Shown here: positions 19,883 through 53,646 of the stretch, in pieces
Layout of the letters: each line of letters starts with the position of its first letter
How positions within the stretch are numbered: the stretch's first letter is position 1
Virus record (IMG/VR): IMGVR_UViG_3300028410_000015
Source of the DNA: a virus
Strand: one strand, 5' to 3'
Length of the DNA stretch: 53,646 bases
Notes under the pieces: generated by a model
Told to the model about the DNA's origin: nothing
Databases searched by the model: none
What the model saw: only the letters and a program-made list of their open reading frames with translations
Position numbers and translations under genes: made by a program

Positions 19883-19887
19883 TAAAA

Positions 19888-37768: not shown

Positions 37769-37889
37769 AAGTAAAAAGTGTTCAAATTTTTCTCGAAGAA
37801 ATTTTTTGAGTTAAGCTCTAATGGAAAGTCGACTTGCGCAGAAAAAAGCCAAAGCCAAAGTGATTCAAAAAATTCTGTGCTGTGTGAGG

Positions 37890-38075
37890 GGGTCAGGGTC
37901 CCCACCACGCGCCCAGCAGCCCCCAGTGAGGTGGTATAGGCCCTGGAGCGCCCCTACCCTTTCGCAGGGCGCCCTTAAGCATATAGATGGCCCCGCCCCC
38001 CAGGGCCCTATTGTACTGCGCAGAGGGGGCGGGGCCCAGGGCCCTTGCAGAGGGCCCTAGCGCCCTAGCCTAGCG
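37890..38075. repeat. GC-rich (about 70%) palindromic island with perfect 12-bp inverted repeats GGCCCCGCCCCC/GGGGGCGGGGCC and repeated AGGGCCC/CCCTAGC motifs
   Basis: Seen directly in sequence, at the boundary between the paralogue operon and the cassette array. The surrounding DNA is under 40% GC. Confidence 0.6.
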
Positions 38076-38282
38076 ATGCCAATCTGTTGCTGCTGCGTGC
38101 GCATCTAGAAATTCTGTTTCTACCCAGGTCGCGCCGCCATCTACAGACATAACGAACGCGCCGTCTGATGCGCCTGCAACAAGTTCGCCTGCTTCTGTCT
38201 GCATCGTGTACAGGACATCGCCCGTAGATACCATCTTAAGCTGCACGCCGTTCATAAGACCATCGAGTTCTGTTGGTTTCAT
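38070..38282 (-). CDS. hypothetical small protein (first gene of the cassette array)
   Basis: ORF track 70 aa. The conserved promoter module lies upstream at about 38330-38395, with a 5'UTR hairpin GCAAGAGGC/GCCTCTTG. Confidence 0.45.
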   Translation of the reverse strand: MKPTELDGLMNGVQLKMVSTGDVLYTMQTEAGELVAGASDGAFVMSVDGGATWVETEFLDAHAAATDWHR

Positions 38283-38470
38283 GGGCAGAACCGTTCCATA
38301 TTGCTGTTACCCTTCTTTTGTGCAAGAGGCGACTTGCCTCTTGTAAGTATATTATACCACTTGCTGCAGCTTTTTGCACTACACTGGCAAAAGAATGCCA
38401 GTTGCTTTTTGCAGTTGCCAGTGCTTCATGCTTCATTGGCAGCTCGTATTCGCAGACATCGCCATCAAGG

Positions 38471-38863
38471 TCAGTGCCCTACAAGTGCGTCAATCTCCTT
38501 CCACTTTGGCATGCCAGTGATGTCCTGGTTGTGTCTACTGGTTTCGCCGATCGGCTGGACCAGACCCTTGCAGCCTTCCTCAGTCAGTCGAATCCCGTGG
38601 ACCCAAAGGTATGCACCGGCCCAACGCCATCCGTCTTCGTACCTCTTTTCAGCAGAGCATCGCTCATTAGGTCCGTCCCACATGAAGTTGTCATTCCAAG
38701 CCGTCGCCAATTCCCAGATTCGCTTGTGGTTGGGACTGATGCCTGATTGTGCGTACAAGGCAGCTCGGCTCTCACGCCCTCGACGAGTCACCTCACTACT
38801 GTCTGACATACATGATGTCCAGTCGTGTCTGCGGACGGCTTTCGCGTATGCTTGAATATCCAT
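38471..38863 (-). CDS. hypothetical protein
   Basis: ORF track 130 aa. Conserved promoter module at 38870-38930. Confidence 0.45.
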   Translation of the reverse strand: MDIQAYAKAVRRHDWTSCMSDSSEVTRRGRESRAALYAQSGISPNHKRIWELATAWNDNFMWDGPNERCSAEKRYEDGWRWAGAYLWVHGIRLTEEGCKGLVQPIGETSRHNQDITGMPKWKEIDALVGH

Positions 38864-38932
38864 GATGTTCCTTCCTTGGTTCTTGCCTCTTGTAAGTACA
38901 TTATACCACTTGCAGTGGCTTTTTGCACACGA

Positions 38933-39961
38933 TCACAGACCGAATGTCAGATCATCCAGGTAGTTGAAGAACCACTTTCGTGCTGCACCCTGGACGGTCG
39001 CCGTCACTTCACCCTTTTCAAGCTCGCTACACTCGATCGTGTCAGTCTCTTCCTTCAACACGTCCTTGACAACCCATCCTAGGAACTTACCAGTAGACTT
39101 GCGATCGAGTGGTGCCTTCATCATCTGTAGTGCTTCGATGCCTTGGTTGAGACGCGCTTCAGTCACAACTGCTGCAGTGAAGTCCTCAATCGCAGCCAAA
39201 CGTTCAGGTGCGACAGGAATCTTCTCACGTGTCTTGGACACCTTATGCTTCTCACCCTTGGTCTTGAACCAGACGTCTGACAACTCCCAACCTGGTGTGA
39301 CGCATGTCCAGACAACTCCTTCACCTACACCCTTGTGTCCTAGTGCTGCAGCGATTGGGCATTCACGCTCAACACTGTCAGTCACGTGTGAGAGTTCGTC
39401 CACAGACAACTTAGGATCGTTGAAGTTGATGGAGGTCGTGAATGTCTCGAAGTGATTGACGTTCAGGAATCGTGGGTCTTCACTTGTGACATCACTCATG
39501 TCCTCAGCACTCATCCAAGTGCAAGTCTCTTCTTCACCTGGGTTTACGCAGTCGAGAACAGCGAATAGTACGAACACCTTCTCATGTTGATTGATTGCAA
39601 CACCCTTCTGAATGCCCTTTCCACACCATTCTCCGAAGTAGGTTCGCACTACATCTGGGTCATCATGAGGTACAGCCCAATCCAGATTGGATTGTGACAT
39701 AAGACCTGCAAACTGACAATTGTCGTTCCCTACTGTCAGTTCGCGAGTACGACTCTGAAACTTGATGGGCTGGCCTCGCTGTACTACAACACCTACGTTT
39801 GTCCCATGCAGCTTTACAGTGCCACGGAACTTGAGTGTTGGAATCGGCTTTGTGTCGTCATACAGCGGTACGTCTTGTTCGTCACAACCTGTGTATGTTG
39901 CCCGAAGACGGACTGTGTTGACAGCATTTCGAAACTGATTGATGGATGGAAACTTGTTCAT
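38933..39961 (-). CDS. Rnl2-like ATP-dependent RNA ligase (nucleotidyltransferase motif I KLHGTN)
   Basis: FRGTVKLHGTNVGVV resembles T4 Rnl2 motif I (KIHGTN). Downstream there are EGVVW-type motif IV and WFKTKGEKHK motif V candidates. ATG at 39959-39961. Confidence 0.6.
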   Translation of the reverse strand: MNKFPSINQFRNAVNTVRLRATYTGCDEQDVPLYDDTKPIPTLKFRGTVKLHGTNVGVVVQRGQPIKFQSRTRELTVGNDNCQFAGLMSQSNLDWAVPHDDPDVVRTYFGEWCGKGIQKGVAINQHEKVFVLFAVLDCVNPGEEETCTWMSAEDMSDVTSEDPRFLNVNHFETFTTSINFNDPKLSVDELSHVTDSVERECPIAAALGHKGVGEGVVWTCVTPGWELSDVWFKTKGEKHKVSKTREKIPVAPERLAAIEDFTAAVVTEARLNQGIEALQMMKAPLDRKSTGKFLGWVVKDVLKEETDTIECSELEKGEVTATVQGAARKWFFNYLDDLTFGL

Positions 39962-39971
39962 CTGTTGTATC

Positions 39972-40172
39972 TCACTTTCTGACGTTACATGATGCCTGAT
40001 GAAAGGAACATAACATGGTCGAGATCACGTGAGCTCTTGTAAAAACTTGGTTCACCACCGTACTGTGGAATTGAGTACACTTCGTAGTCACCAGTGGATA
40101 GGTTTTGGTAGATTTCCAGGCCGGCTCGCCGATGACGTCTTCGGGTACAATGAATTGGTACTTGTTCATGTC
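39972..40172 (-). CDS. hypothetical small protein (MDMNKYQFIVPEDVIGEPAW...)
   Basis: True start is the MDM ATG behind SD AAGGAAGGAACAAC. Paralogue of an untracked 43-aa ORF at about 40636-40766 (MSSVPNRRTHQFITTEECIGEPVFY...). Confidence 0.45.
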   Translation of the reverse strand, partial: DMNKYQFIVPEDVIGEPAWKSTKTYPLVTTKCTQFHSTVVNQVFTRAHVISTMLCSFHQASCNVRK

Positions 40173-40821
40173 CATGTTGTTCCTTCCTTGTTTATGTGCA
40201 ACCTTGTTTATGTGCAACCTTGTTTATGTGTAAGAGTTCTTGCCTCTTGTAAGTACATTATACCACTTGCAGCGGCTTTTTGCACTCGACATGAATGTTA
40301 TTGCAGGTACAACAACAAAAGCATCCAGAGAGTTCTTCTGATACACACTACATGGTTGCTGAATGTCAGGTCAGGACTTGTTCTTTCGTTTCTCTTCTCG
40401 TGCCTCTTGAATCGCAGTTGTTAGTTCATCGAGAAGCTCCTCTGCCAGCTCGAGAGACAACACCCAATCGAGCACCTCAATCACACCCACTTCAGAATCA
40501 TAAGTCACTCCTGGCACCATGTCGCCACTCCTCATTCGTGTGTCTTGTTATACGATGCCAGGGCACCAACTACCGTTTTACTGCTAGACGCACGACGCAC
40601 GAAGTCGAGGTTGCAGGTTGTATCTCACTTTCTGACGTTACATGATGTCTGACGCTAGGAACTCTGCATATTCCAGTTCACGTGCACTCTTGTAAAAAAC
40701 CGGCTCACCAATGCACTCTTCTGTTGTGATGAACTGGTGTGTTCGCCTGTTTGGTACTGATGACATGATGATTCCTTCCTTGGTTCTTGTCTATTATATC
40801 ATCTGCTGCTGGTTTTTGCAC

Positions 40822-41151
40822 TTACTTCTTACGAGTTCGCTCACAAAGCGCCAACACGCAGGCTCGCTGCCTCTCACAAATCTCAGTCAACGTCTCGTCA
40901 CTCTGCCAATGCGGTGTGTTGAGCTTCAGTCGCTTCAAGTTGACGAGCCTGCTGACCTCAGGAATAAGCTTGTTACCAAAAGTGTAGACTTCTTCATGCG
41001 TCATCTCTTTGTTCGGGTCGAAGTGGTCGCGTGCCTCTTTTGCAAGCACATCAATTTGTGCCTGGACATCGTCTAAGTTGATGCTGTCCCGTTCACGATC
41101 AAGGTCGTCCTGCGAGAGATTGAGGTCAAAGGGGTTTCGGTAGTAGCTCAT
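40822..41151 (-). CDS. hypothetical protein
   Basis: ORF track 109 aa. Promoter module at 41160-41210. Confidence 0.45.
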   Translation of the reverse strand: MSYYRNPFDLNLSQDDLDRERDSINLDDVQAQIDVLAKEARDHFDPNKEMTHEEVYTFGNKLIPEVSRLVNLKRLKLNTPHWQSDETLTEICERQRACVLALCERTRKK

Positions 41152-41298
41152 GTCTTCCTCCTTTCTAGTATATTATACCACAGGTGTCTGGTTTTTGCAC
41201 CTTCCTGCTAGATCCTCCTCAGCTTCTACCATCCTCTCCCAGCCATCTGAGGTGACATCACCGATATCACGACGAGTGCGACGACTCATGCCACCTCC

Positions 41299-41784
41299 TC
41301 ACTTCTTCCGATTGTCAACGTGGAGCTCAGTCTCGATGAAGCTGGACTTCAACTTGTTACAATCAATCACGAGGACCGCGACAGTGTTGCTCGACTCGTA
41401 ATCCCACAGCAAGGTCTCAAAGTACATGCTGACCAAACAGTCCTCACCGAGGCGCTTCACGATCTTGTCAATCATGTGCATCGAGATTCCCTTGCCGTCC
41501 TCCATCACCTTCACGACACAGCGGAAGCCATCTCCGTCTTTGAGGTCCAGCTCGAGGCTCTTGTCAATGCCGGTCCGACCACTGTGATGCTTGGGCAACT
41601 TATTGATGTACTTGTTAGGGGCATCACATACTGTCTCGGTGTCTCGGATGACGTAGCCGTCCTTGAACCGGAGCTTGTTGATTGCCTCGACCACCTTGCC
41701 AGCCTTGACGTACTTTGAACCGAAGGTCTCGAGGGTGCCGTCTGCGTCGAGGGTCTCGAAGGAGGTGTGAATCAAATCGGTCAT
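41299..41784 (-). CDS. hypothetical protein (start MTDLIHTSF; the track extension is a GTG reading through the promoter/UTR)
   Basis: ATG at 41782-41784. The 5'UTR carries the hairpin GCAAGAGGC-TT-GCCTCTTC. Confidence 0.45.
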   Translation of the reverse strand: MTDLIHTSFETLDADGTLETFGSKYVKAGKVVEAINKLRFKDGYVIRDTETVCDAPNKYINKLPKHHSGRTGIDKSLELDLKDGDGFRCVVKVMEDGKGISMHMIDKIVKRLGEDCLVSMYFETLLWDYESSNTVAVLVIDCNKLKSSFIETELHVDNRKK

Positions 41785-42103
41785 GTTATTGCCTATGATG
41801 TGTAAGGCTGGTTGATTCCCTCCTTGATGCAAGAGGCTTGCCTCTTCCACTTTGTTATTATACCCTATTCAGTCGACTTTTGCACTAGCTGTCGAACATT
41901 TTCTGTGCTGGACAACGGTCTGCGCTGCCTTAACTTCTGAGACAGTTTCTGAACTGTTGATGGGTTTCCTATCAGGTCGAGCATCAAAAGCTGCTCTAAG
42001 CTACTTCTGGGTACTTTTTGGCAGCCACAGTAATGAGCTGCTCACCACCTTGGAGTAGGCAAATGAGTAGCTTGAACTGTACAGGTTTTGGCCTGTCGTT
42101 AAT

Positions 42104-42394
42104 TCACTTGAAAGTGATAATCGAGCAAGGCTTGCCGTCGTCGCGATGCTCATCGTCAATGCACACGGTGAAGCGACGAGTGTAGGACATGGACTCAAGA
42201 GCCTCATGAATTTCAGAGATTGACTCCAGGTCATCTCCCGAAATGCCGTCCACAACAATGGAATCAACCACACCGATACGCAGACGAACAAAGACATCCG
42301 TTGCGCCGTGCTTCCGTGCTGCGTTTCCAATTGCAGCCAGCGCACCGTCTTCAGCGTGAGAGATGGCGAAGCGGTATGACTTAAAGTCGTTCAT
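42104..42394 (-). CDS. hypothetical protein (start MNDFKSYRF)
   Basis: ATG at 42392-42394 behind SD AAGGAAGGAAATAC. The track extension translates the conserved promoter (QKASASGIMILQGRK). Confidence 0.45.
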   Translation of the reverse strand: MNDFKSYRFAISHAEDGALAAIGNAARKHGATDVFVRLRIGVVDSIVVDGISGDDLESISEIHEALESMSYTRRFTVCIDDEHRDDGKPCSIITFK

Positions 42395-42494
42395 GTATTT
42401 CCTTCCTTGTAATATCATTATACCACTTGCAGACGCTTTTTGCACTTAACATGAATGTTATTGCAGGTGCACCTTCAAAAGCCCACAGTCATGG

Positions 42495-42716
42495 CTACAG
42501 AACAATCTTCAGTGCACCCTGTAGGATGTCGTCAGCCTCTGTAGAGTCGTCAGACCTGATGGCCCGAAGTACTGCAACAGACATATCATCTAGCCTCATG
42601 CGCAGTCGTACAGAACACTCATCTGTCCTGATGAAGTGTCCGGAGTCGTGCATCACACACCAGCAGTACACACACTGTCCCTCTTCCCACTTGTGTTCGA
42701 ATCGTGTGTCAGCCAT
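42495..42716 (-). CDS. hypothetical Cys/His-rich small protein (MADTRFEHKWEEGQCVYCWCVMHDSGHF)
   Basis: ATG at 42714-42716 with SD AAGGAGGG. TGATG overlap with the upstream gene. Confidence 0.45.
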   Translation of the reverse strand: MADTRFEHKWEEGQCVYCWCVMHDSGHFIRTDECSVRLRMRLDDMSVAVLRAIRSDDSTEADDILQGALKIVL

Positions 42717-42937
42717 CACCGCCCTCCTTGCGCGAACTCTGCAGCTGCCTTTGCACGCCTGACACACTCTTCAACAGCATCTTCAAGGCACCAGACACTG
42801 AATGTCAGGGTGATTCCCATTACTGTGAAGGGCTTTGCTGCAGCATATGCCTCTGCTTCGTCTGTATACACCTCATCAAACGAGTAGATGCTTGGGTCGT
42901 TTGTGAGAACAACGAAAACTTCATATGAACGTAGCAT
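42716..42937 (-). CDS. hypothetical small protein (MLRSYEVFVV...)
   Basis: ATG at 42935-42937 with SD AAGGAAGGAGCTAC. Promoter module at 42950-42990. Confidence 0.45.
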   Translation of the reverse strand: MLRSYEVFVVLTNDPSIYSFDEVYTDEAEAYAAAKPFTVMGITLTFSVWCLEDAVEECVRRAKAAAEFAQGGR

Positions 42938-43070
42938 GTAGCTCCTTCCTTGTAAGTCTATTATACCATAACAGACAGGAAATTGCACATCATGTAAGTC
43001 GCAACCACAATTGCTGCCAAAGACATAAATGATACGATGTTGACTATTTTCCTGAGCATTGCGACCTCAC

Positions 43071-43253
43071 TCACAGGCTCAACGTGCTTGCCTTCACACG
43101 CTTGTAACGCTCAGCGCGGAGGTGAGACAGATTGGCTTGAGCGACTCGCATCTTGCGACAGTCAAGGCTCCCACCTGCAGTCAAGACCTTGACGGTTGCC
43201 TCATATCTTGCAATGATGGTCTCGAGCTCTTCGTTGGTCTTGTTTTCGAACAT
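43071..43253 (-). CDS. hypothetical small protein
   Basis: ORF track 60 aa. Promoter module at 43300-43345. Confidence 0.35.
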   Translation of the reverse strand: MFENKTNEELETIIARYEATVKVLTAGGSLDCRKMRVAQANLSHLRAERYKRVKASTLSL

Positions 43254-43351
43254 GCGGGATGCCTCTGAATGAGTGATGCTTTGAAGCGGTAACCGTTACC
43301 TCTTCTCTACTTATGTATTATACCCTACCCGCACACTTTTTGCACTTACTT

Positions 43352-43549: not shown

Positions 43550-43603
43550 ATTGTCTCCAGTGTTTCATGTGAGCACATCCACGCCCAGCACTCTGTAAGT
43601 AGC

Positions 43604-44490: not shown

Positions 44491-44501
44491 ATCTAACCGG
44501 C

Positions 44502-47760: not shown

Positions 47761-47783
47761 CGAGCACCGAGTGCTCATGCCAC

Positions 47784-48092
47784 TCAGGCAGCGTTGAGCT
47801 TGTCCCAGGTCTTCTGACGGAAGACCATGCCAACGGTCATCGAGGGGATACGATCTCCAACCTCGTCGTCGACATGAGCCGGGAATGTTACGGCGCACAT
47901 GTAGGTATCAGTCTTCTCGTAGACAGCACACAGCTTGATCTCCGTGCCTTCCGGAAGATGAAGCCACTTGCCCGAGTAGTCCTCGTGAGCAGTCAAGGCC
48001 GTCTCGGTTCCAGGAATGAAGAAGAACGCGTTGCCCTCAGAGGTTCGGACGCGGGTGGTAGCAGTGAGAGCGAGAGTGTTGACGTTGGTCAT
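47784..48092 (-). CDS. hypothetical protein, duplicated cassette gene (paralogue of 44502..44855)
   Basis: See 44502..44855. The flanking promoter and the downstream about 70-bp element are duplicated too. Confidence 0.5.
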   Translation of the reverse strand: MTNVNTLALTATTRVRTSEGNAFFFIPGTETALTAHEDYSGKWLHLPEGTEIKLCAVYEKTDTYMCAVTFPAHVDDEVGDRIPSMTVGMVFRQKTWDKLNAA

Positions 48093-48236
48093 ATGAGGTA
48101 CCTCTTTCTGGTTGGGATGTAAGGTTGGTTGATTCCTTCCTTACTTTGTTATTATACTCTATTCTGACGCTTTTTGCACATGCCTCTGAATTTTATTTCG
48201 TGTCCTTGAAGTCGTTTTCGTACACGTACTCATGGT

Positions 48237-48419
48237 CTACATGAACCACAGCAGCAACCATGAAGCGACAGCGATGTCAGAGACGGACCAAACTACGACT
48301 GCTGGGTACTCCTCGGGCTTGTACATGTCCATTTCGGCTGTCCGTCTGTCGGTTGCTGGCAATGACAACAGCCACTTGCTGTAGTCGTCGTCGTCGTCTT
48401 TGAGGAGTAACTTGTACAT
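48237..48419 (-). CDS. hypothetical small protein (acidic N-terminus, hydrophobic C-terminus)
   Basis: ORF track 60 aa, adjacent to 48420..48725. Confidence 0.35.
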   Translation of the reverse strand: MYKLLLKDDDDDYSKWLLSLPATDRRTAEMDMYKPEEYPAVVVWSVSDIAVASWLLLWFM

Positions 48420-48725
48420 TCAGAACCTGTTTCTAGAGGGTGTTGCATGGAGATCATCGTTCGTCGAGTTCATGGCGTTCTCCTTAGCTTCCTCAGCGCG
48501 AGCCTCGGATGCAGCAATCAAAAGGAGCCTGCTAATAGCTTCTGCAGCGAATGCGTCCATCGTGATCGTCTTCGACACCACGTTGTTCAAGCTTAAAGTC
48601 TCCACGTATTCGAGTTCAATCCTATTGTCTTCATTGTTGCTGACGACGTAGCGACCCCCGAAGTGGTCGCCGAAGAACTCGCTGGCGATCTGGCGAGAAG
48701 TTTTAACCCACATAGGTACTGACAT
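48420..48725 (-). CDS. hypothetical protein
   Basis: ORF track 101 aa with SD AAGGAAGGAATCATT and a promoter module at 48745-48790. Confidence 0.45.
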   Translation of the reverse strand: MSVPMWVKTSRQIASEFFGDHFGGRYVVSNNEDNRIELEYVETLSLNNVVSKTITMDAFAAEAISRLLLIAASEARAEEAKENAMNSTNDDLHATPSRNRF

Positions 48726-48781
48726 AATGATTCCTTCCTTGGTTCTAATAGTATTTTATCATGTGCAGAAGATTTTTGCAC

Positions 48782-49105
48782 TTACCTGCGCTTGTCGCGA
48801 TCAGTGACCTCAGTGACATCACCTTGGTTTTCACTATATGCCACGTAGAACTCGCCACCCGAGCCTTCGGTCTTGTACTCGCCGTTGGTGTCTGAGGTGT
48901 ACAACTCGATCTCAATGTGCCACCAATCTTCGTTGCAGTCGTCGTCTACCTTTGCGTCGTCGATCGTTTTGCGGAAGTCTGCAAAACACTGGCGCGCAGC
49001 GAACTCTTTCATGAACATGCGCTCTTCGCGTCCTGCAGTATCTTCATCATTGTATTCGTTGCCACACGTAAAGTTGACGCGGTAGAGGTCGAAGCTGATT
49101 GCCAT
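48782..49105 (-). CDS. hypothetical acidic protein
   Basis: ORF track 107 aa. ATG at 49103-49105, SD at 49112-49121, -10 at 49131-49137, conserved TTTGCAC at 49153-49160. Confidence 0.45.
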   Translation of the reverse strand: MAISFDLYRVNFTCGNEYNDEDTAGREERMFMKEFAARQCFADFRKTIDDAKVDDDCNEDWWHIEIELYTSDTNGEYKTEGSGGEFYVAYSENQGDVTEVTDRDKRR

Positions 49106-49167
49106 GATGTTTCCTTCCTTGGTTCTTGTCTATTATATCATCTGCTGCAGCAATTTGCACCAGACGA

Positions 49168-49452
49168 TCACCAGATCTGAAGGTGACACCCTCGCCACGA
49201 CTCACAGCACGCCTGGCCTTCGACCTGCTTCTCAAACACTGAGACTGCTGTGAATCCGAATGCATTCACGGTATCATAAGGGCACCACATGCCCCAGTTG
49301 GCCTCCAGGTTAATATCCGTGTAACCTTGGCTCTCGAGCTGTGAAACGGTCTCATCTCGGTGACCATTACGCTGGGAAACTGAGCATGAGAAGGTCACTG
49401 CTGTAATGATGATGATGCCTGTAATGATGCTAGCAAACTTCAGAATGTCCAT
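49168..49452 (-). CDS. small secreted protein or lipoprotein candidate (N-terminal signal MDILKFASIITGIIIITAVTFSC)
   Basis: ORF track 94 aa with the promoter module upstream. Confidence 0.45.
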   Translation of the reverse strand: MDILKFASIITGIIIITAVTFSCSVSQRNGHRDETVSQLESQGYTDINLEANWGMWCPYDTVNAFGFTAVSVFEKQVEGQACCESWRGCHLQIW

Positions 49453-49611
49453 GTTGTTTCCTTCCTTGGTTCTAATAGTATTTTATCATGTGCTGCACAA
49501 ATTTGCACTGCATTTAGCTGATCAACACAATCACACACCAGGTCAGGCCAATCGACAGCACCCATACTACTGCCACGATGAGTGACGACATCAAGACTTC
49601 TCTCCACTCTA

Positions 49612-49929
49612 TCACAGTACACTCTCAAGTTTTTCCCAACTCATGAAGCGGTGAGGAATGAGAGTGTAATCCCCCTTCAGCACAACACTCACAAAGTCCT
49701 CGTCAGTCGTCGATGGTGTGCACTCGAAATCAAAGATGAAACTCAGTCCTCCTAGATCCACGATCTTGTCGAAGTCGGATTTCGTAAAAGTCTTCACGTC
49801 GATTTTGACGTAGATTATTTGACCATTCTGATCCGAATCGTAGCAGATGGTAGCATTACGATGACGCTGCCAATCCAGGCACACAGCAAGCGTTGTTAGA
49901 ATCTCTGGCTCATTCATCTTGAGTCGCAT
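49612..49929 (-). CDS. hypothetical protein
   Basis: ORF track 105 aa with SD GGAGATAAC. A 12-bp perfect hairpin (GTGGCGGTATGC-AAT-GCATACCGCCAC) lies upstream at about 49963-49990. Confidence 0.45.
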   Translation of the reverse strand: MRLKMNEPEILTTLAVCLDWQRHRNATICYDSDQNGQIIYVKIDVKTFTKSDFDKIVDLGGLSFIFDFECTPSTTDEDFVSVVLKGDYTLIPHRFMSWEKLESVL

Positions 49930-50023
49930 GTTATCTCCGCACTTCTAAAGCTATTCTCTGTCCAAAGACAAGTGCGTGGCGGTATGCAATGCATACCGCC
50001 ACGTTCTCTAACCAATCTGAGAA

Positions 50024-50638
50024 TTACGCTGCGACTGCGTCACTCTCATCAATGTTCGAGGCATCATTCAGTTCGTCGAGCTCATTGAGCAGAGCTGCAA
50101 CCTCAGCCTGATGCGCCTCGTCGCCTGCATCGTCCTCAGCCTCAGTCACGACGTCAGCAGTTGCAGAAGCGCGCGATGCGGCCTTTGCGTCCTTGGCTGC
50201 ATTTGCAGCAGCCTCCTTCTCTGCGACCTTTGCAGCCTTGGCAGTCGCCTTGGCCTCATTCTCAGCCGCATCGATCACGGCCTTCTCTGCAGCGGACTGG
50301 ACCTTCTCAGCGTCCTGGTCAGCCATGAGCTTCTCGAAGCTGTTCTTGCGGAGGAAGACACGGAGCGTGTTGCCAGTCGCGTTCTCGTGGCCCTCGAGGT
50401 TGAAGAGGACAACGTAGATATCAGGCCGGTCGAACTCAGCGATGACCTCGAACCGAGTTCCGGCGGGGACTTCCACCTTGGTGTTCTTGACGTAGTCGTT
50501 GCCGACGAGAACCTTCTCAAGGCTGCCGTCCTCAGTCTCTACGACAGAGCGCACGTTGCCCTGGCATGCAGAGGCCGTGACCTTGACGTCGTTGGTGGTG
50601 GTGAAGGAGAAGAAGGTGAGTGCGACGATGACGTTCAT
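50024..50638 (-). CDS. putative lipoprotein with an Ala/Lys/Glu-rich alpha-helical C-terminal tail
   Basis: True start MNVIVALTFFSFTTTNDVKVTASAC (lipobox-like TASA-C). C-terminal AEKAVIDAAENEAKATAKAAKVAEKEAAANAAKDAKAA low-complexity helix. ATG at 50636-50638. Confidence 0.5.
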   Translation of the reverse strand: MNVIVALTFFSFTTTNDVKVTASACQGNVRSVVETEDGSLEKVLVGNDYVKNTKVEVPAGTRFEVIAEFDRPDIYVVLFNLEGHENATGNTLRVFLRKNSFEKLMADQDAEKVQSAAEKAVIDAAENEAKATAKAAKVAEKEAAANAAKDAKAASRASATADVVTEAEDDAGDEAHQAEVAALLNELDELNDASNIDESDAVAA

Positions 50639-50743
50639 AATGAGTACCTCATTTGTTTTGACTGGTTGGAGGTAGGCTAATTCCTTCCTCCTTCCTAATG
50701 TTATTTTACCACGGCTGCAAGTTTTTTGCACTTGCCTATGAAA

Positions 50744-51022
50744 TTACTTCTGAAGGATGCTTGCAAAAGGGTTGTAAGTTAGCGGAGTGGCTTCAAGTGC
50801 TGCTTTCTCACGCGCTGCGATTGCAGCCTTCTGGCGCTCCTTTGCAAGCTGACGCTCTGCCTTAGCATTGTGCAGGCTGTCCGTCTCAGCGTAGATATCC
50901 TCCAGCGTCATGTTGTCGAGATCGTACATGCCGCGAGGCCGCCAACCATTGATCTCCTTGAAGGTGTCCGAGAGGACTGAGATTGCAATGTCGCGGTCAG
51001 TGGCGGGAGCGAGAAGAGTCAT
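50744..51022 (-). CDS. hypothetical protein
   Basis: ORF track 92 aa. The 5'UTR holds a 12-bp perfect hairpin GGAGGAGGTAGG-TTGATT-CCTACCTCCTCC. Confidence 0.45.
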   Translation of the reverse strand: MTLLAPATDRDIAISVLSDTFKEINGWRPRGMYDLDNMTLEDIYAETDSLHNAKAERQLAKERQKAAIAAREKAALEATPLTYNPFASILQK

Positions 51023-51113
51023 GCTTGTGTGCCTCCAGTGGAGGAGGTAGGTTGATTCCTACCTCCTCCCTAATGTTATTATATCACTTAGGACTAACTT
51101 TTACACCAGTTGC

Positions 51114-51512
51114 TTACTTTTGGATCCCGCGGTTGAGGAGGTCCTGAAAGGTGAGTCCCGCTGCCTTCAACTTCTTGTTGGCTTGCTTTGCCAGCAGGAG
51201 TCCATGAGGCGTGATGACGAAGGAGTGTGCTCCGGTGCGGGCCTTGCGGTTGGACTTCCAGTAATACCCAGCGTACTTGACTCGTGCTCTAAAGCCGTCG
51301 GTGTCTCTCTTGTACCACGCGGATACGAACCGAAAGTAAACCACATACCATCCACGATGCTTGTAACTATCGTAGTCGACTCCGAGGCTCCGCAAAACCC
51401 GCTCGCGGTGATATGCACCTGATTGGAGTGGCTTGTCGATGATGGACAACGCGAAGAACTCGACGTTGTTGATGACACCGTGGTTGCTGGGTCTGTTTTG
51501 CATGTTTTGCAT
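51114..51512 (-). CDS. hypothetical basic protein
   Basis: ORF track 132 aa, Trp/Tyr/Arg-rich. Confidence 0.45.
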   Translation of the reverse strand: MQNMQNRPSNHGVINNVEFFALSIIDKPLQSGAYHRERVLRSLGVDYDSYKHRGWYVVYFRFVSAWYKRDTDGFRARVKYAGYYWKSNRKARTGAHSFVITPHGLLLAKQANKKLKAAGLTFQDLLNRGIQK

Positions 51513-51601
51513 GTTTGATGATGTCCTGTGTGGTGAGAGTAGGTTGATTCCTTCTCTACTTAAGTATTATATCATCCGTAGCTCAAATTTGCACTTGCCC
51601 G

Positions 51602-51895
51602 TTATTTCCGGTTCAACTTAGCCTGGACCCGACGACGGAGCTCTCCGGGCTTGAGCGGGACGAACTCTTTCTTCCGTGTGAACTTTGCATCGAATGCAGA
51701 CTGCGGGATCCAGTCGTCGCCATCCCATGTCCACTGGCAACGGCCCGACTTGGCCATCACCTTCATCATGAACTTCTCGTGCTCTCCGGTCTCCTCGTTG
51801 AACTTATCGATGAGCACCTTCTGTCCCGTTGCAACCTTGGCCTCGGTATAGGTTGACTGACCGAAAAAACGACCACGATAATCAGGCTTATTCAT
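51602..51895 (-). CDS. hypothetical protein
   Basis: ORF track 97 aa with SD GCAGGAGCTCAA. Confidence 0.45.
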   Translation of the reverse strand: MNKPDYRGRFFGQSTYTEAKVATGQKVLIDKFNEETGEHEKFMMKVMAKSGRCQWTWDGDDWIPQSAFDAKFTRKKEFVPLKPGELRRRVQAKLNRK

Positions 51896-51966
51896 TTGAG
51901 CTCCTGCATGTTTGAATCAGTATTTCCTAACATGATCATTATATCATCTGCAGCTCAAATTTGCAT

Positions 51967-52353
51967 TTAGCTAACCTTGAATTCTGCCTCGCTAACCCAG
52001 AAAGCGATTCGCGACGGTCCCGCATCTGATTTGCATTCTGTGAAAACTGTGATCTTCACAGAATTGTCTGGGATAGCCTTGAACTCTTCGTCGACTTGAT
52101 CAGTGATTGTTTGATCAACGATGTTAGTCGGAACATTCCAGATGTTCCCAGTCCACTTATCTGGCTCTGCATTGAACACTCTTTGACGAACTCTTTGACG
52201 AACTTCGTGGGTGTCCTTGAGTTCAGCTACGCGATCCCTATAGTAGACTGACTTCGGAATTGCAACCCATGGCTGGCCCCGTGACCAATGCCATACTTTA
52301 CCTTCGACGTCGATGACCGAGTAGAAGTCATCAGTGAGATCTTTGAGGTTCAT
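51967..52353 (-). CDS. hypothetical protein
   Basis: ORF track 128 aa. ATGA overlap with the upstream gene. Confidence 0.45.
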   Translation of the reverse strand: MNLKDLTDDFYSVIDVEGKVWHWSRGQPWVAIPKSVYYRDRVAELKDTHEVRQRVRQRVFNAEPDKWTGNIWNVPTNIVDQTITDQVDEEFKAIPDNSVKITVFTECKSDAGPSRIAFWVSEAEFKVS

Positions 52354-52541
52354 TTTGCCTCCTTGTCTGCCTTGACGAAATTAAGTGGAAGGTACCTGTT
52401 TTTCTCTTCGTTCACATCATCTTCGACGACCAGAGCGTCGAGATAGTTCCAGCCTCGCGATACGAAAGTCTTTGTTCCGTATTTGACGCGAGCTCCCTTG
52501 GGGAAGTCCTTGTTCTCATGTTCATGTCGCTTGTAGCTCAT
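52350..52541 (-). CDS. hypothetical small protein
   Basis: ORF track 63 aa with SD AAGGAAGGAAATACAA. Promoter module at 52549-52594. Confidence 0.45.
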   Translation of the reverse strand: MSYKRHEHENKDFPKGARVKYGTKTFVSRGWNYLDALVVEDDVNEEKNRYLPLNFVKADKEAK

Positions 52542-52626
52542 TTGTATTTCCTTCCTTGTAATACCATTTTATCATCTGCAGCAGAAATTTGCACTACTTG
52601 TCAGATGTGGCTTTACTGAGGCCATC

Positions 52627-52920
52627 TCAGAGGCAGATCGTGAAGGTTACCTTCATCATGTCGATACCTTGTTCACGCAGAGGGATAACTTCGAACGTGA
52701 TGGCATCGAGGTCATCAACGCTTAGAATTTCGGACAGGATGTAGCAACACTGTGTAAAGACATGACTGTTAAAGGATGTCACGTTCACCGTGAATTCGGA
52801 AGCACCTTGTCTCTTGATAATGCTTCCGAACTCGCAGACTGCGTCAATCGTAGCAAAGTACGTCTCCATCTTGTCGAAGGCCGCGTCGAAGTCGTGATTG
52901 GTTGCCTGTAGGTTACGCAT
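52627..52920 (-). CDS. hypothetical protein
   Basis: ORF track 97 aa with the promoter module upstream. Confidence 0.4.
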   Translation of the reverse strand: MRNLQATNHDFDAAFDKMETYFATIDAVCEFGSIIKRQGASEFTVNVTSFNSHVFTQCCYILSEILSVDDLDAITFEVIPLREQGIDMMKVTFTICL

Positions 52921-52975
52921 TGGTATCTTCTTGGTTCTTATGTATTATACCACTTGCTGCACAAGTTTGCACTAC

Positions 52976-53344
52976 TCACTCGAATGGATACTCTTCAAGA
53001 ACCTCAACTCGCATCGGAATCATCTTGCCACGGTTGTTCTCCTCTGACGCCTTGTATCCGTATGGAAAGCACATGTCAAAGAGTTGAAGAGAATTGTGCG
53101 TCATCCCCCATCGTACGACACCATCAGAATTCTTTGTCTCCCATGAGAATGCGTCAGCCTCTTCGACCGTGGACACCGGAACTAGCCGAACTCGCTGAAT
53201 GGGTGTGGTTTTCTGGTTGACCCAGATTGACATCACGTGCTTGAAGTACCCGAACATGTGGTCAGGTCGACCATCCTTGCCAGGTCGCACACCGACGTAG
53301 AATTCGTCCATCTCAGTGAGTAGCGGGTAGTCTACTTCTTGCAT
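52976..53344 (-). CDS. hypothetical protein
   Basis: ORF track 122 aa. A further minus-strand ORF appears to enter from beyond the window end (53351..53646). Confidence 0.4.
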   Translation of the reverse strand: MQEVDYPLLTEMDEFYVGVRPGKDGRPDHMFGYFKHVMSIWVNQKTTPIQRVRLVPVSTVEEADAFSWETKNSDGVVRWGMTHNSLQLFDMCFPYGYKASEENNRGKMIPMRVEVLEEYPFE

Positions 53345-53646
53345 TCTTTACTTTGATCCGTCTGTGACGAGTGACTTGAAGAAAATGACCAGGTCGATGA
53401 TGACGTCGATCAGAGGAACTGTTTCGTGCTGCCAGTGAGTGTGTCGCCGCTTCTGCTTTTCGTTTGCAATAACCAACAGCTCAGTCAATAGAAAAACCTC
53501 TGCGAGTACTTGGGACCACACTTACAGTAACAACGACGGCAGACTTGTGTACAGATGTTACACACGAATCAATGAGAATGGAACAAGTATGATCGGGAAT
53601 CGTTCGTGTGATCTCGCCGCGAATCTTGTCCAGATCCATCAAGGTG

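What the first reader, a model, noticed from the sequence alone, without database searches (positions are those of the whole stretch)
37800..53646. Array of about 30 near-identical promoter/leader modules driving 40 or more small genes: a PeSL-like hyperplastic cassette region
Upstream of almost every minus-strand gene start between 38.3 and 53.0 kb, the same module recurs. Read on the minus strand it is GTGCAAAAA, about 14 nt, TGGTATAATA (an extended -10), a short hairpin often containing GGAATCAACC, the SD AAGGAAGGAA, then 4-6 nt and ATG. Many cassettes end with hairpin-plus-T-run terminators (for example 44461-44490 and 47728-47760). Genes within a cassette are coupled by TGATG/ATGA overlaps. 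At least one whole cassette is duplicated, including its flanks (44502..44855 and 47784..48092). GC content is higher than in the left part of the window. This resembles T4 promoter-early-stem-loop (PeSL) elements that mediate shuffling of small early ORFs, but here it forms an unusually regular and extensive array. Embedded cargo includes an Rnl2-like RNA ligase, a MazG-like NTPase, lipoprotein and secreted candidates, and many ORFans. These are plausibly host-takeover or anti-defence genes that are diversified by recombination between the repeats.
Basis: seen in the sequence. Interest (0 to 1): 0.75.

Follow-up and report, generated by a model that had tools for sequence, protein, structure and literature searches.

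The report
Dense early-promoter cassette array, marine phage
A large uncultured marine phage carries about 43 near-identical promoter-plus-ribosome-site modules in 27 kb, each driving one or two tiny unknown genes; this resembles the early "host-takeover" regions of phages T4 and SPO1, but it is unusually regular and uses a promoter signature shared by more than 100 related marine phage fragments.

Summary
On the minus strand, 28 modules (GTGCAAA, 16 nt, TATAAT, usually TGnTATAAT, then a Shine-Dalgarno site and ATG) lie between 38351 and 52972 and precede 39 small ORFs. The source contig shows 15 more modules upstream of the window, so the array is about 26.8 kb with about 43 modules.

- **Leaders:** there are two kinds. 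One is short and unstructured, with AAGGAAGGAA. The other is long, starts with a 5'-terminal hairpin (loop GGAATCAACC) and has a second SD, GAGGTAC.
- **Overstated claims:** only 4 intrinsic terminators exist, so "many" is too strong. The MazG call is below threshold.
- **Confirmed claims:** the RNA ligase call holds. The duplicated cassette holds too, and has a third copy outside the window.
- **Relatives:** the same promoter plus SD occurs in at least 119 mostly marine metagenome contigs. Many carry their own arrays, none is close to a cultured phage, and they share almost no cargo with the window.
- **Recombination:** among those relatives, rearrangement breakpoints are enriched at modules. 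One indel is exactly one promoter-plus-ORF unit between two module copies.

Best reading: a lineage-specific class of strong sigma-70-type, probably early, promoters organising an accessory gene region, with the modules also serving as homology for cassette gain, loss and duplication. It works like T4 PeSLs and the SPO1 host-takeover module, but it lacks the PeSL upstream terminator stem-loop. I rate it a new variant of a known kind.

The parts
38070..53646 (-). Window part of the cassette array. It holds 28 promoter/leader modules and 39 small ORFs, all on the minus strand. The array continues about 11.5 kb beyond 53646 on the source contig.
52918..52972 (-). Module (-35 to ATG), short leader, drives a 97-aa ORF
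52539..52594 (-). Module with short AAGGAAGGAA leader. It drives a 63-aa ORF and an ATGA-coupled 128-aa ORF.
51893..51966 (-). Module (ATGCAAA variant), 36-nt leader, 97-aa ORF
51510..51594 (-). Module with 5' hairpin leader (loop GGAATCAACC), 132-aa ORF
51020..51106 (-). Module with a 12-bp 5' hairpin (GGAGGAGGTAGG/CCTACCTCCTCC, dG -26 kcal/mol, z -6.2), 92-aa ORF
50636..50731 (-). Module with 5' hairpin and second SD GAGGTAC, 204-aa ORF
49975..50003 (-). Terminator-like 13-bp hairpin after the 204-aa ORF. The next two ORFs (49929-49612 and a tiny membrane ORF) have no module.
49450..49508 (-). Module, short leader, 94-aa ORF
49103..49160 (-). Module, short leader, 107-aa ORF
48723..48781 (-). 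Module, short leader, 101-aa ORF plus a coupled 60-aa ORF
47536..48197 (-). Duplicated cassette, copy A. It comprises module 48151-48179, hairpin leader, 102-aa ORF 48092-47784, terminator 47761-47740 and a roughly 200-nt non-coding element.
47452..47503 (-). Module followed only by a 6-codon ORF and about 200 nt without a long ORF. Probably a decayed cassette.
   Evidence: (read directly)
47187..47244 (-). Module (-10 TACAAT). It drives a 32-aa membrane-like ORF and a 107-aa ORF with a weak MazG match.
46637..46729 (-). Degenerate module (GTGCAAA-N16-TACAAA), 93-aa ORF
46300..46340 (-). Hairpin plus T-run terminator immediately upstream of module 46293. This is one of the few PeSL-like terminator/promoter junctions.
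46237..46293 (-). Module, short leader, 83-aa ORF
45901..45979 (-). Module with a 9-bp 5' hairpin (GAGAGGAAG/CTTCCTCTC, z -5.3), 95-aa ORF
45511..45599 (-). Module (GTGTAAA / CATAAT) with 5' hairpin, 79-aa ORF with GTG start
45139..45251 (-). Module (GTGTAAA) overlapped by a GC hairpin, long leader, 59-aa membrane-like ORF
44270..44962 (-). Duplicated cassette, copy B. It comprises module 44916-44944, hairpin leader, 117-aa ORF 44855-44502, terminator 44481-44464 and the non-coding element.
44182..44236 (-). Module, short leader. It drives an 82-aa ORF, a TGATG-coupled 110-aa ORF and a 65-aa ORF.
43251..43345 (-). Module, 57-nt leader, 60-aa and 32-aa ORFs
42935..42988 (-). Module (GTGCAAT), short leader, two coupled 73-aa ORFs
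42392..42445 (-). Module, short leader, 96-aa ORF
41782..41885 (-). Module with a two-hairpin leader that is 90% identical over 78 nt to a leader outside the window. It drives 161-aa and 38-aa ORFs.
41149..41200 (-). Module, 14-nt leader (AAAGGAGG), 109-aa ORF
40764..40821 (-). Module, short leader, 42-aa ORF. This ORF is a paralogue of the C-terminal region of the 40175 gene.
40173..40285 (-). Module with a 75-nt leader holding three tandem 16-nt repeats. It drives a 67-aa ORF and the 342-aa RNA ligase (39961-38933, PF09414).
38861..38928 (-). Module, 30-nt leader, 130-aa ORF
38280..38379 (-). Last module of the array, with 5' hairpin (CAAGAGGC/GCCTCTTG) and a 70-aa ORF. A stem-loop lies just upstream (z -3.8).
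41887..42103 (-). Third, more diverged copy of the non-coding element (core TGATAGGAAACCCATC ... GGCAGCG)
37880..38070 (-). GC-rich block with a 12-bp all-G/C inverted repeat at the downstream edge of the array. A canonical TTGAAC-17-TATAAT promoter follows at 37757-37785.

Best explanation
The region is the accessory small-gene region of a large uncultured marine phage and is probably transcribed early. It consists of about 43 autonomous expression cassettes over about 27 kb.

**Cassette structure**
- Each cassette starts with a strong two-block promoter of the sigma-70 family. The promoter has a near-perfect extended -10 (TGGTATAAT) and a lineage-specific -35 element (GTGCAAA) at a fixed 16-nt distance.
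- A translation initiation region follows, and takes one of two forms.
- The first form is a 14-24 nt unstructured leader with SD AAGGAAGGAA.
- The second is a 41-62 nt leader whose first nucleotides form a purine-arm/pyrimidine-arm hairpin, followed by a second SD (GAGGTAC).
- The hairpin most likely stabilises the 5' end of the mRNA. It also hides the first SD-like tract.

**Transcription**
- Most modules abut the previous stop codon, and only 4-5 terminators exist. Transcription should therefore read through, giving nested transcripts in about five terminator-bounded blocks.

**Evolution**
- The 30-60 bp modules are the only sequence shared between otherwise unrelated cassettes. They provide homology for unequal or ectopic recombination.
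- This duplicates, deletes and inserts promoter-to-promoter units and homogenises the modules within a genome, as proposed for T4 PeSLs.

**Shown versus inferred**
- Shown: the anatomy, the statistics, conservation of the module across a marine phage clade, and module-bounded indels and duplications.
- Inferred: promoter activity, use of the host RNA polymerase, early timing, hairpin function and cargo function.
For: **Anatomy and statistics**
- Motif counts far exceed chance, with strict strand bias and an invariant spacer.
- Modules sit in front of ORF starts with SDs.
- Two leader classes exist. The hairpins start at the predicted +1, with z-scores down to -6.2.
- Stop codons lie 0-12 nt from the -35 element in 12 of 28 modules, and there are few terminators.
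- The array spans about 26.8 kb on the source contig.

**Conservation in relatives**
- The same promoter+SD occurs in at least 119 mostly marine contigs, against about 2 expected by chance by my estimate. Many carry co-oriented arrays, for example L080 with 18 modules in 9.5 kb.
- 196 of the 307 unique modules in those contigs do not match the scan pattern. They still show tnTGGTATAATA at positions my search did not constrain.
- These contigs encode phage proteins and are related to one another.
- Similar leader hairpins occur there. My hairpin screens flagged about 70 of some 325-365 unique modules, and the clear AAGGAAGG-type is a subset of these. Some compensatory change is present.

**Cargo**
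- Cargo is almost entirely unshared and without Pfam matches.

**Recombination**
- A cassette is present in three module-to-module copies.
- The orthologous cassette in L171 keeps promoter, hairpin, GAGGTAC SD, gene and terminator, but its neighbours are unrelated.
- Breakpoints are enriched at modules: 44 of 168 against 14.6 expected.
- The L041/L033 indel is exactly one promoter+ORF unit.
- Non-core module positions are more alike within a genome than between genomes: 0.44 against 0.35.

**Precedents**
- PeSLs (PMC2839356, PMC4122927) and the SPO1 host-takeover module (PMC6873191).
Against: - No transcript data exist, so promoter activity, start sites and timing are unverified.
- GTGCAA matches the canonical -35 at only 3 of 6 positions. 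A phage-encoded sigma or activator cannot be excluded.
- The host is unknown.
- Fragments of this phage from three further samples are 100% identical and collinear, and a fourth (L098) is 99.3% identical, so no cassette polymorphism is seen in the window's own phage.
- Breakpoint enrichment is inflated by non-independent contig pairs. Conserved promoters also act as islands of homology in diverged sequence.
- Hairpin covariation is modest. Slid controls pair 71-75% of cells against 77% observed, because the arms are purine-only and pyrimidine-only.
- About half of the rearrangements among relatives have no module at any breakpoint.
Confidence: 0.62

Rival explanations
1. The modules are promoters, but they are read by a phage-directed polymerase form. 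This could be a clade-specific sigma factor, or a MotA/AsiA-like activator that recognises GTGCAAA at -35 to -29. The array would then be a middle-class rather than an immediate-early regulon.
For: - GTGCAAA is invariant, yet matches TTGACA at only 3 of 6 positions, and a canonical scan misses every module.
- An extended -10 normally makes a -35 element dispensable, so strong conservation of GTGCAAA implies that something recognises it specifically.
- A canonical TTGAAC-17-TATAAT promoter sits just outside the array, at 37757-37785.
- The motif is absent from 18 scattered, chance-level hits in 185,579 bacterial genomes. The exception is one likely phage contig.
Against: - T4 and KVP40-type early promoters also carry lineage-specific -35 variants while using the host sigma-70 (PMC4122927).
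- The 16-17 nt spacing is that of a true -35, not of a MotA box, which lies about 12 nt from the -10 (my own knowledge).
- No sigma or activator gene was identified in the window, although I did not search for one exhaustively.
- The same promoter type also precedes the tRNA cluster and RtcB.
Confidence: 0.2
2. The similarity between modules is only inherited from repeated tandem gene duplication of a few ancestral cassettes. The modules would have no special role in recombination or regulation beyond being ordinary promoters.
For: - One cassette is present in 3-4 paralogous copies.
- A second paralogue pair lies at 40766 and 40175.
- Spacers are homogeneous within genomes.
Against: - Of 39 window ORFs, nearly all are unrelated to one another. 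Self-BLAST finds only module-sized matches apart from the two paralogue sets.
- The module core is conserved across more than 100 contigs with unrelated cargo.
- Indels in relatives are bounded by modules.
Confidence: 0.08
3. The repeated module is chiefly a protein-binding or recombination site, and the resemblance to a promoter is secondary. Candidates are an operator array for a repressor, or a site for a dedicated integron-like recombinase.
For: - Spacer sequences are strongly homogeneous within a genome. L080 carries CCTGAAGAGAATGTGG in about 12 modules. The window has GCTGCA-type spacers with partial dyad symmetry.
- Breakpoints cluster at modules.
Against: - The conserved positions are exactly the -35, extended -10 and -10 blocks at promoter spacing, followed by SD and ATG.
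- Spacers differ between genomes.
- No recombinase was found next to the array, although the cargo is unannotated.
- There are no flanking inverted repeats or target duplications.
Confidence: 0.06

Closest known systems
PeSL (promoter-early stem-loop) cassettes of T4-type phages (Arbiol et al. 2010, PMC2839356; Comeau et al. 2014, PMC4122927)
   Same: - Repeated sigma-70-type promoter + SD + ATG elements of roughly 60-100 bp lie between small ORFan genes in a plastic region.
- Each phage lineage has its own -35 variant.
- Stem-loops with G-rich and C-rich arms adjoin the promoter in a subset of elements.
- Indels and replacements between relatives fall at the elements, and promoter+ORF units are gained or lost.
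   Different: - Most modules here have no stem-loop upstream and no terminator function. The stop codon abuts the -35 element.
- The stem-loop, when present, is in the transcribed leader at +1.
- There is no AT-rich upstream tract.
- The -35 element is GTGCAAA.
- The array is far denser and longer: about 43 modules in 27 kb, against for example 8 in 5 kb or 6 ORFs in 5 kb in the T4-type phages.
- The phage shows no T4 core genes in the 77-kb contig region examined.
- Mini-circles were not tested.
SPO1 host-takeover module (Stewart et al. 1998, as summarised in PMC6873191)
   Same: A contiguous block of small early genes with promoters and ribosome-binding sites typical of highly expressed genes, organised as many short operons. 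SPO1 has 26 genes in 12.4 kb.
   Different: - SPO1 promoters are canonical sigma-A promoters.
[quoted passage not shown]
- The array here is about twice as long.
- Several SPO1 proteins have demonstrated host-shutoff functions. No protein here has a tested function.
T4 early promoter class (my own knowledge: about 40 copies per genome, with a consensus extending beyond the sigma-70 hexamers)
   Same: - One genome-wide class of very similar, very strong promoters.
- The consensus extends outside the canonical hexamers.
- The -35 element departs from the host optimum.
   Different: The sequence differs (GTGCAAA against GTTTAC), there is no UP-like A-tract, and the local density is higher.
5'-terminal stem-loop and SD-like mRNA stabilisers (ompA 5' hairpin; SP82 and cryIIIA polypurine 'STAB-SD' elements; my own knowledge)
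   Same: A hairpin begins within 0-2 nt of the predicted 5' end, and a polypurine SD-like tract lies near the 5' end, well upstream of the real start codon.
   Different: Here the SD-like tract forms the 5' arm of the hairpin. Function is untested, and the host ribonucleases are unknown.

Membership tests
T4-type PeSL | Strong sigma-70-like promoter (-35, about 17 nt, -10) with a lineage-specific consensus | tested here: met
   GTGCAA(A), 16-17 nt, TGGTATAAT is invariant in 27 window modules and 307 modules of relatives. The -35 matches TTGACA at only 3 of 6 positions. Published PeSL -35 elements also vary (PMC4122927). Promoter strength was not measured.
T4-type PeSL | Adjacent stem-loop acting as terminator or attenuator of upstream transcription (a composite promoter-terminator) | tested here: not met
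   The upstream 50 nt are not unusually structured except at 3 modules. The stop codon lies 0-12 nt from the -35 element in 12 of 28 modules. Only 4 intrinsic terminators lie on this strand. Stem-loops in about one third of modules lie downstream of the -10 in the leader and have no T-run. Arbiol 2010 lists a stem-loop downstream of the -10 as one subclass.
T4-type PeSL | AT-rich tract upstream of the -35 element | tested here: not met
   The 25 nt upstream are 55.7% AT, against 50.4% for the array. The logo shows no conservation there apart from 'aa'.
T4-type PeSL | SD and start codon at the 3' end of the element; location between small ORFans in a variable region | tested here: met
   Among the 30 window ORFs scanned against Pfam, none reached a gathering threshold. 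The three-copy family finds only itself in 5.8 billion proteins by word search, and 41 remote relatives by profile search.
T4-type PeSL | Insertions, deletions and replacements between related genomes located at the elements | tested here: inconclusive
   For the window's own phage, fragments from three further samples are 100% identical and one (L098) is 99.3% identical; all are collinear. In related marine contigs, breakpoints near modules number 44 of 168 against 14.6 expected, and there are clean module-bounded indels, L041/L033 and L041/L091. Within the genome, a cassette is duplicated from module to module.
T4-type PeSL | Formation of cassette mini-circles by recombination between neighbouring elements | not testable with these tools
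   This needs inverse PCR or long reads from infected cells or virions.
T4-type PeSL | Host genome is a T4-like myovirus | tested here: inconclusive
   No T4 core gene was seen in the window. The MVP-like protein has homologues in the phage collection only in uncultured phages of 462-735 kb, and the best matches of the CCA-enzyme are uncultured phages of 634-642 kb. The relatives' ATPase and vWA proteins are under 32% identical to any cultured phage.
SPO1-type host-takeover module | Contiguous cluster of small genes with strong promoters and strong ribosome-binding sites, in many short operons | tested here: met
   The window holds 28 modules for 39 ORFs of 32-342 aa with near-consensus SDs. 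This is by sequence only.
SPO1-type host-takeover module | Early expression by host polymerase; products shut off host functions; located in the terminal redundancy | not testable with these tools
   There are no expression data, no functional data, and no genome ends.
Integron gene-cassette array | Promoterless cassettes bounded by attC sites next to an integrase and attI | tested here: not met
   Every cassette has its own promoter. There are no attC-like imperfect inverted repeats at cassette ends. No integrase appeared in Pfam scans of the larger ORFs.

The most novel reading that the evidence does not exclude
The GTGCAAA element and the conserved leader hairpin are not simply a host-promoter variant and an mRNA stabiliser. 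Instead they are recognition sites for clade-specific phage factors: a sigma or appropriation factor, and an RNA- or DNA-binding protein. In this reading a whole clade of uncultured marine jumbo phages runs a private transcription and cassette-exchange system. It would work like an integron in which each cassette carries its own promoter, and it would continuously diversify a pool of ORFan host-interaction genes.
Probability: 0.12. Interest if true: 0.75.

Novelty: new variant of a known kind. Interest (0 to 1): 0.5.

Why it matters
- **A sequence tag for regulated genes.** If these are early promoters, the 30-nt signature marks the first-expressed genes across a widespread clade of uncultured marine large phages. 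These genes are mostly ORFans, and in model phages that class holds host-takeover and anti-defence proteins. A candidate list could therefore be drawn from metagenomes without culturing.
- **A wider range for a known mechanism.** The array extends the T4 idea that regulatory repeats serve as linkers for gene shuffling to a very different phage lineage and to a much larger scale.
- **A testable puzzle.** A -35 element that is invariant yet non-canonical points either to an unusual host sigma specificity, which would be a clue to the host, or to a phage factor.
- **A practical consequence.** The modules fragment short-read assemblies. Contigs from other samples end inside them, so such regions are under-represented in viral catalogues.

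Tried and rejected
**Searches for relatives**
- Megablast of both halves of the window against 50,697 phage records found nothing but tRNA fragments.
- A 62-nt consensus module in sensitive BLAST mode gave only chance hits. The words are too short for BLAST, so this negative result is weak.
- A strict promoter pattern scanned against IMG/VR gave 15 single hits, apparently chance apart from L010, which a later scan showed carries an array. The composite pattern found 5 contigs, of 50-267 kb.
- A scan of 185,579 bacterial genomes gave 18 scattered single hits with no consistent taxon, so it gave no host clue. The one exception is a 101-kb contig binned with a Halobacteriovorax MAG, which looks like a phage contig.
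- RNA-ligase homologues are at most 46% identical and sit in tightly packed operons without such modules.

**RNA searches**
- An Rfam E-value scan of 36000-53646 found nothing.
- RNAalifold on a MAFFT alignment of leader hairpins predicted no structure, because stem and loop lengths vary. I replaced it with a covariance model.

**Strain polymorphism**
- A gene list for L167 seemed to show cassette differences. The DNA is 100% identical, and only the gene calls differ.

**Ideas considered and rejected**
- CRISPR-like or satellite array: spacing is irregular, 260-1400 bp, with ORFs between the modules.
- MITE or transposon: there are no terminal inverted repeats or target duplications.
- Coding remnant: the modules are intergenic and are followed by SD+ATG.
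- RNase III sites of the T7 early type: the stems, at 6-12 bp, are too short.
- lambda nut/boxB: there are far too many copies.

**Other**
- A paper search for GTGCAAA was uninformative.

Full report

Yes.
No hit occurs in any of 100 dinucleotide-preserving shuffles.
- One mismatch was then allowed in GTGCAAA and one in TATAAT. This gives 27 minus-strand sites between 38351 and 52972, every one with exactly 16 nt between the two blocks.
- There are six weaker minus-strand sites in the first 37 kb and two sites on the plus strand.
- A further degenerate copy (-10 TACAAA) lies at 46701-46729.
- TGNTATAAT occurs 17 times on the minus strand and never on the plus strand. AAGGAAGGAA occurs 12 times against 0.
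- The composite promoter-plus-SD pattern has 12 matches against 0 expected.

Reading the minus strand directly and translating curated ORFs shows 39 ORFs of 32-342 aa behind these modules. Twenty-eight are first genes of a cassette. The rest are coupled to the preceding gene by ATGA, TGATG, GTGATG or TGAATG junctions. GC is 0.48-0.53 in the array and 0.37-0.47 to its left.

**2. Anatomy of a module**

The information-content profile of 38 copies gives aaGTGCAAAAa.c.gc.gca.aTGgTATAATA....t..AAGGAAGGAA. Nothing is conserved further upstream.

Leaders fall into two classes.
- **Short class.** About half are 14-24 nt from the predicted start to the ATG. They are unstructured and carry AAGGAAGGAA (or AAGGAGG) 5-9 nt before the ATG.
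- **Long class.** About a third are 41-62 nt and begin, at the predicted +1, with a hairpin.
  - The 5' arm of the hairpin is the same purine tract, and its loop is GGAATCAACC or a close variant.
  - The 3' arm is a matching pyrimidine tract.
  - An A/C-rich spacer and a second SD (GAGGTAC) follow.
  - Examples are GGAGGAGGTAGG/CCTACCTCCTCC at 51106 (-26 kcal/mol, z -6.2), GAGAGGAAG/CTTCCTCTC at 45979 (z -5.3), and GTAAGG/CCTTAC at 48179 and 44944.

Upstream of the -35 element, the stop codon of the preceding gene lies 0-12 nt away in 12 of 28 modules. The 50 nt upstream are no more structured than shuffles except at 46729, 46293 and 38379.

Only four hairpin-plus-T-run terminators lie on this strand: 50003-49975, 47761-47740, 46340-46300 and 44481-44464. 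Most promoters must be read through from upstream.

A canonical TTGACA/TATAAT scan finds none of the modules, because GTGCAA matches TTGACA at only three positions.

**3. Extent and source**

An exact-protein look-up placed the window on a 77,525-bp ENA contig (ERZ27315555, k141_234856). The window is its reverse complement from about 23865 to 77510.
- The 9.7 kb upstream of window position 53646 contains 11 more modules.
- A second fetch shows four more, and then none for a further 7.5 kb.
- The array therefore runs from window position 38351 to the equivalent of about 65179. That is about 26.8 kb and about 43 modules, or one per 0.62 kb.
- Six tRNA genes are interspersed in the part outside the window.
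- At the downstream edge lies a GC-rich block (37880-38070), followed by a canonical TTGAAC-17-TATAAT promoter and lower-GC genes.

**4. What phage is it?**

There is no nucleotide relative among 50,697 phage records. The left part of the window holds:
- 36 tRNA genes;
- RtcB, a CCA-adding/poly(A) polymerase fused to a HAD domain, DnaJ, a phosphomannomutase-like protein, and an 892-aa protein with a major-vault-protein shoulder domain.

The vault-like protein matches only three uncultured phage records of 462-735 kb, at 38-43% identity. The best matches of the CCA-enzyme are uncultured phages of 634-642 kb. The window therefore comes from a large, probably jumbo, uncultured phage. I did not identify the host.

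**5. Cargo**
- The 342-aa protein (38933-39961) is an RNA ligase (PF09414, E 2e-12). Its nearest homologues are 43-46% identical.
- The 107-aa protein at 46758-47081 matches MazG only weakly (E 0.0087, 16.8 bits against a cut-off of 22).
- None of the other 29 cassette proteins scanned reaches a Pfam threshold.
- The three-copy family finds only its own three members in 5.8 billion clustered proteins. A profile search of 1.84 billion representatives finds 41 remote relatives.

**6. Repeats beyond the promoter**

Self-comparison shows one cassette in three copies. The unit comprises promoter, hairpin leader, a 102-137 aa gene, a terminator and a roughly 200-nt non-coding element.
- 48197-47536 matches 44962-44270 at 71% nucleotide identity over about 690 bp.
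- A third copy lies outside the window and is 77% identical to the 48179 copy.
- The repeated unit starts at the promoter and ends about 30 nt before the next promoter.

A second paralogue pair is 40710-40617 and 40057-39964. All other self-matches are module-sized, at 37-94 nt. The cassettes are therefore unrelated apart from their modules.

**7. Relatives**

By my estimate from pattern information and collection size, about two would be expected by chance. Nearly all are marine or estuarine.
- **Arrays.** Many contigs carry several co-oriented modules: L080 has 18 in 9.5 kb, L033 has 12, and L022, L057 and L060 have 9 each.
- **Conserved positions.** Of 307 unique modules in these contigs, 196 do not match the scan pattern. 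They still show tnTGGTATAATA at positions my relaxed search did not constrain.
- **Phage character.** The contigs are phage-like and related to one another. There are 641 contig pairs with DNA similarity of 66-100%. Recurrent genes include an AAA ATPase (phrog_1297), a zincin/vWA protein (phrog_1314), RnlA-like RNA ligases and a DNA ligase. All are under 32% identical to cultured phages.
- **Size.** IMG/VR holds five such contigs, up to 267 kb.
- **Shared cargo.** The contigs share almost no cargo with the window.
- **Bacterial genomes.** The scan gave 18 scattered single hits with no consistent taxon. The exception is one 101-kb contig with 5-7 modules, binned with a Halobacteriovorax MAG.

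The promoter is thus a property of a widespread uncultured marine phage clade, or of its unknown host, and not of this genome alone.

**8. Leader hairpins in relatives**

My hairpin screens flagged about 70 of some 325-365 unique modules. The clearest class has the same design: AAGGAAGGAGGGGA, a 4-7 nt loop, then CCTCTTCTTCC.

A covariance model built from 14 of them found 35 matches.
- On the resulting alignment, 77% of cells pair.
- 14 cells show changes on both sides, against 5.6 in shuffles (0 of 500 shuffles reach the observed value).
- Slid controls still pair 71-75% of cells, because the arms are purely purine and purely pyrimidine.

Support for a selected structure is therefore real but modest.

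The best single case is the orthologue of the three-copy cassette in L171. Its protein is 50-55% identical. It keeps GTGCAAA-N16-TATAAT, AACAAAGTAAGG..CCTTAC with a longer compensated stem (GTAAGGAG/CTCCTTAC), the GAGGTAC SD and a downstream terminator. Its neighbouring genes have no homologue in the window's contig.

**9. Test of the shuffling idea**

For the window's own phage there is nothing to compare.
- Fragments from JGI 3300012271, JGI 3300039191 and SRR6185438 are 100% identical and collinear. A fourth fragment (L098) is 99.3% identical.
- An apparent difference in gene lists was only a difference in gene calling.
- Those contigs end inside modules (at 40194, 44903 and 49464). This shows that the repeats break short-read assemblies.

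Among the related marine contigs I chained alignments for all pairs at 75% identity or more, and found 47 indels or replacements of 150 bp or more.
- After dropping duplicate events, 44 of 168 breakpoints lie within 45 nt of a module, against 14.6 expected from module coverage (binomial p about 2e-11).
- This figure is inflated by non-independent pairs, and by the fact that conserved promoters are islands of homology.
- Two indels carry the specific signature of module-to-module exchange, in which both flanks align to one module in the other genome with a 52-53 bp overlap.
- In the first, L041 has one extra promoter plus an 82-aa ORF (297 bp) between two module copies, where L033 has a single module in front of the same downstream gene.
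- The second is a 2469-bp case between L041 and L091.
- About half of all events have no module at any breakpoint.

Positions of the module that should be free to vary are more alike within a genome than between genomes. These are the first 11 spacer nucleotides and the 12 nt after the -10. The values are 0.39 against 0.32 for this phage, and a mean of 0.44 against 0.35 over 36 contigs. L080 carries nearly the same spacer in a dozen modules. This is what duplication or gene conversion between modules would produce.

**10. Mechanism**

*Shown*
- The two-block promoter geometry, the SD+ATG, the two leader designs, the scarcity of terminators and the ORFan cargo.
- The clade-wide conservation of the promoter core.
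- The module-bounded duplication and indels.

*Inferred*
- A sigma-70-family holoenzyme initiates at each module. The extended -10 is a textbook match. The fixed-distance GTGCAAA acts as the -35, much as T4-type phages have their own -35 variants (PMC4122927).
- Transcripts read through into downstream cassettes until one of the few terminators.
- The hairpin at +1 protects the 5' end and masks the first SD-like tract, with translation starting from the GAGGTAC SD.
- The region is expressed early and encodes host-interaction functions. This rests on analogy with T4 hyperplastic regions and the SPO1 host-takeover module (PMC2839356, PMC6873191).
- Homologous exchange between modules moves promoter-to-promoter units.

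**11. Comparison with known systems**

The array works like PeSL arrays, but it fails two of their defining features. It lacks the terminator stem-loop that makes a PeSL a composite promoter-terminator, and it lacks the AT-rich upstream tract. It also sits in a phage that shows no T4 signature. It resembles the SPO1 host-takeover module in organisation. It is not an integron, a CRISPR array, a MITE family or a set of RNase III sites.

I therefore class it as a new variant of a known kind. Its notable features are its size and regularity, its invariant non-canonical -35 element, the leader hairpin, and its spread across an uncultured marine clade.

**12. Verdict**

Interest is moderate (0.5). 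The architecture has good precedents, but the promoter signature gives a direct handle on the early gene pool of an uncultured marine jumbo-phage clade. It also poses a concrete question about which factor reads GTGCAAA.

Noticed in passing
window 37880-38070: A GC-rich block of about 190 nt sits exactly at the downstream edge of the array. It contains a perfect 12-bp all-G/C inverted repeat (GGCCCCGCCCCC/GGGGGCGGGGCC) and repeated AGGGCCC units. An AT-rich stretch and a canonical TTGAAC-17-TATAAT promoter (37757-37785) follow. It folds no better than shuffles of the same composition (z -0.83), has no Rfam match and has no counterpart in the marine relatives. Its function is unknown; it could be an insulator or terminator, a replication or packaging signal, or a module boundary.
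   Followed up: partly
window 47505-47745, 44238-44470, 41887-42103 (minus strand): A non-coding element of about 200 nt occurs in three copies downstream of cassette genes. In two copies it follows an intrinsic terminator. Its core is invariant: TGATAGGAAAC(C/T)CATC ... CAGAA ... GGCAGCG. It has no Rfam hit and no match in the related contigs. The consensus fold is weak (-13.8 kcal/mol with three sequences). It could be a small RNA, a protein-binding site or a decayed gene.
   Followed up: partly
window 8449-19975: 36 tRNA genes, all on the minus strand, lie in several clusters. A module-type promoter (GTGTAAA-N16-TATAAT at 11933-11961) sits directly in front of one cluster.
   Followed up: partly
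L166 12242-13533 and 18801-18876 (window-equivalent about 60500-59200 and 53930-53850, outside the window): Six more tRNA genes are interspersed among the cassettes upstream of the window. They include tRNA-Lys copies that share an 81-bp stretch at 100% identity about 5.9 kb apart, so tRNA genes are also being duplicated within the array. A segment of about 140 bp here is about 80% identical to segments in four marine relatives (L037, L038, L045, L064).
   Followed up: partly
window 13768-16446 (minus strand): An 892-aa protein carries major-vault-protein shoulder and repeat domains (PF11978 at E 1e-26, PF17795). Its only homologues in the phage collection are in three uncultured huge phages of 462-735 kb.
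   Followed up: partly
window 22121-23362, 26811-28622, 38933-39961, 20623-21474: The window holds an RNA-repair and chaperone toolkit next to the tRNA clusters. It comprises RtcB, a HAD ('Swiss army knife' type) + CCA-adding/poly(A) polymerase fusion, an Rnl2-family RNA ligase inside the array, and a DnaJ homologue. This suggests a defence against host tRNA-cleaving systems.
   Followed up: no
window 40190-40245 (minus strand): The leader of module 40285 contains three tandem copies of a 16-nt unit (TGCACATAAACAAGGT). The last copy merges into the SD AAGGAAGGAA. This looks like slippage within a leader.
   Followed up: no
window 47260-47452 (minus strand): Module 47503 is followed by a 6-codon ORF that ends in TAA, and then about 190 nt without a long ORF before the next module. 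It is probably a cassette whose gene has decayed by frameshift or nonsense mutation.
   Followed up: no
window 39972-40175 and 40638-40766 (minus strand): The last 94 nt of the 42-aa gene and the sequence just after it are 81% identical to the end of the 67-aa gene region, but in a different reading frame of the called ORF. One of the two paralogues is therefore frameshifted or wrongly called.
   Followed up: no
L163, L165, L017 (fragments of the same phage from other samples): Contigs from JGI 3300039191 and SRR6185438 end at window positions 40194, 44903 and 49464, each inside a module. The repeats fragment short-read assemblies, so such arrays are likely to be under-represented in viral catalogues.
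   Followed up: yes
L099, L109, L123, L115, L029, L106 (marine relatives): Several related phage contigs appear to carry cellular-type metabolic genes behind or beside the same promoter. Judging by eye from their N-terminal sequences only, these look like S-adenosylhomocysteine hydrolase, serine hydroxymethyltransferase, and PEP synthase or PPDK-like and PEP carboxykinase-like proteins. I did not test this with profile searches.
   Followed up: no
L154 / L161 (PBIO01000025.1, 101,404 bp; also IMGVR_UViG_2788500220_000014): A 101-kb contig binned in a marine Halobacteriovorax MAG carries 5-7 co-oriented modules and the clade's ATPase/vWA gene pair. It is either a misbinned phage or a clue to the host.
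   Followed up: partly
L041 300-575 and 3099-; L091 501-: In relatives, a small gene family (MSYEYKV.../MTYEYKV..., with repeated 'ADGSVEWE' units) recurs behind separate modules. It is the cargo of the cleanest module-bounded indel.
   Followed up: partly
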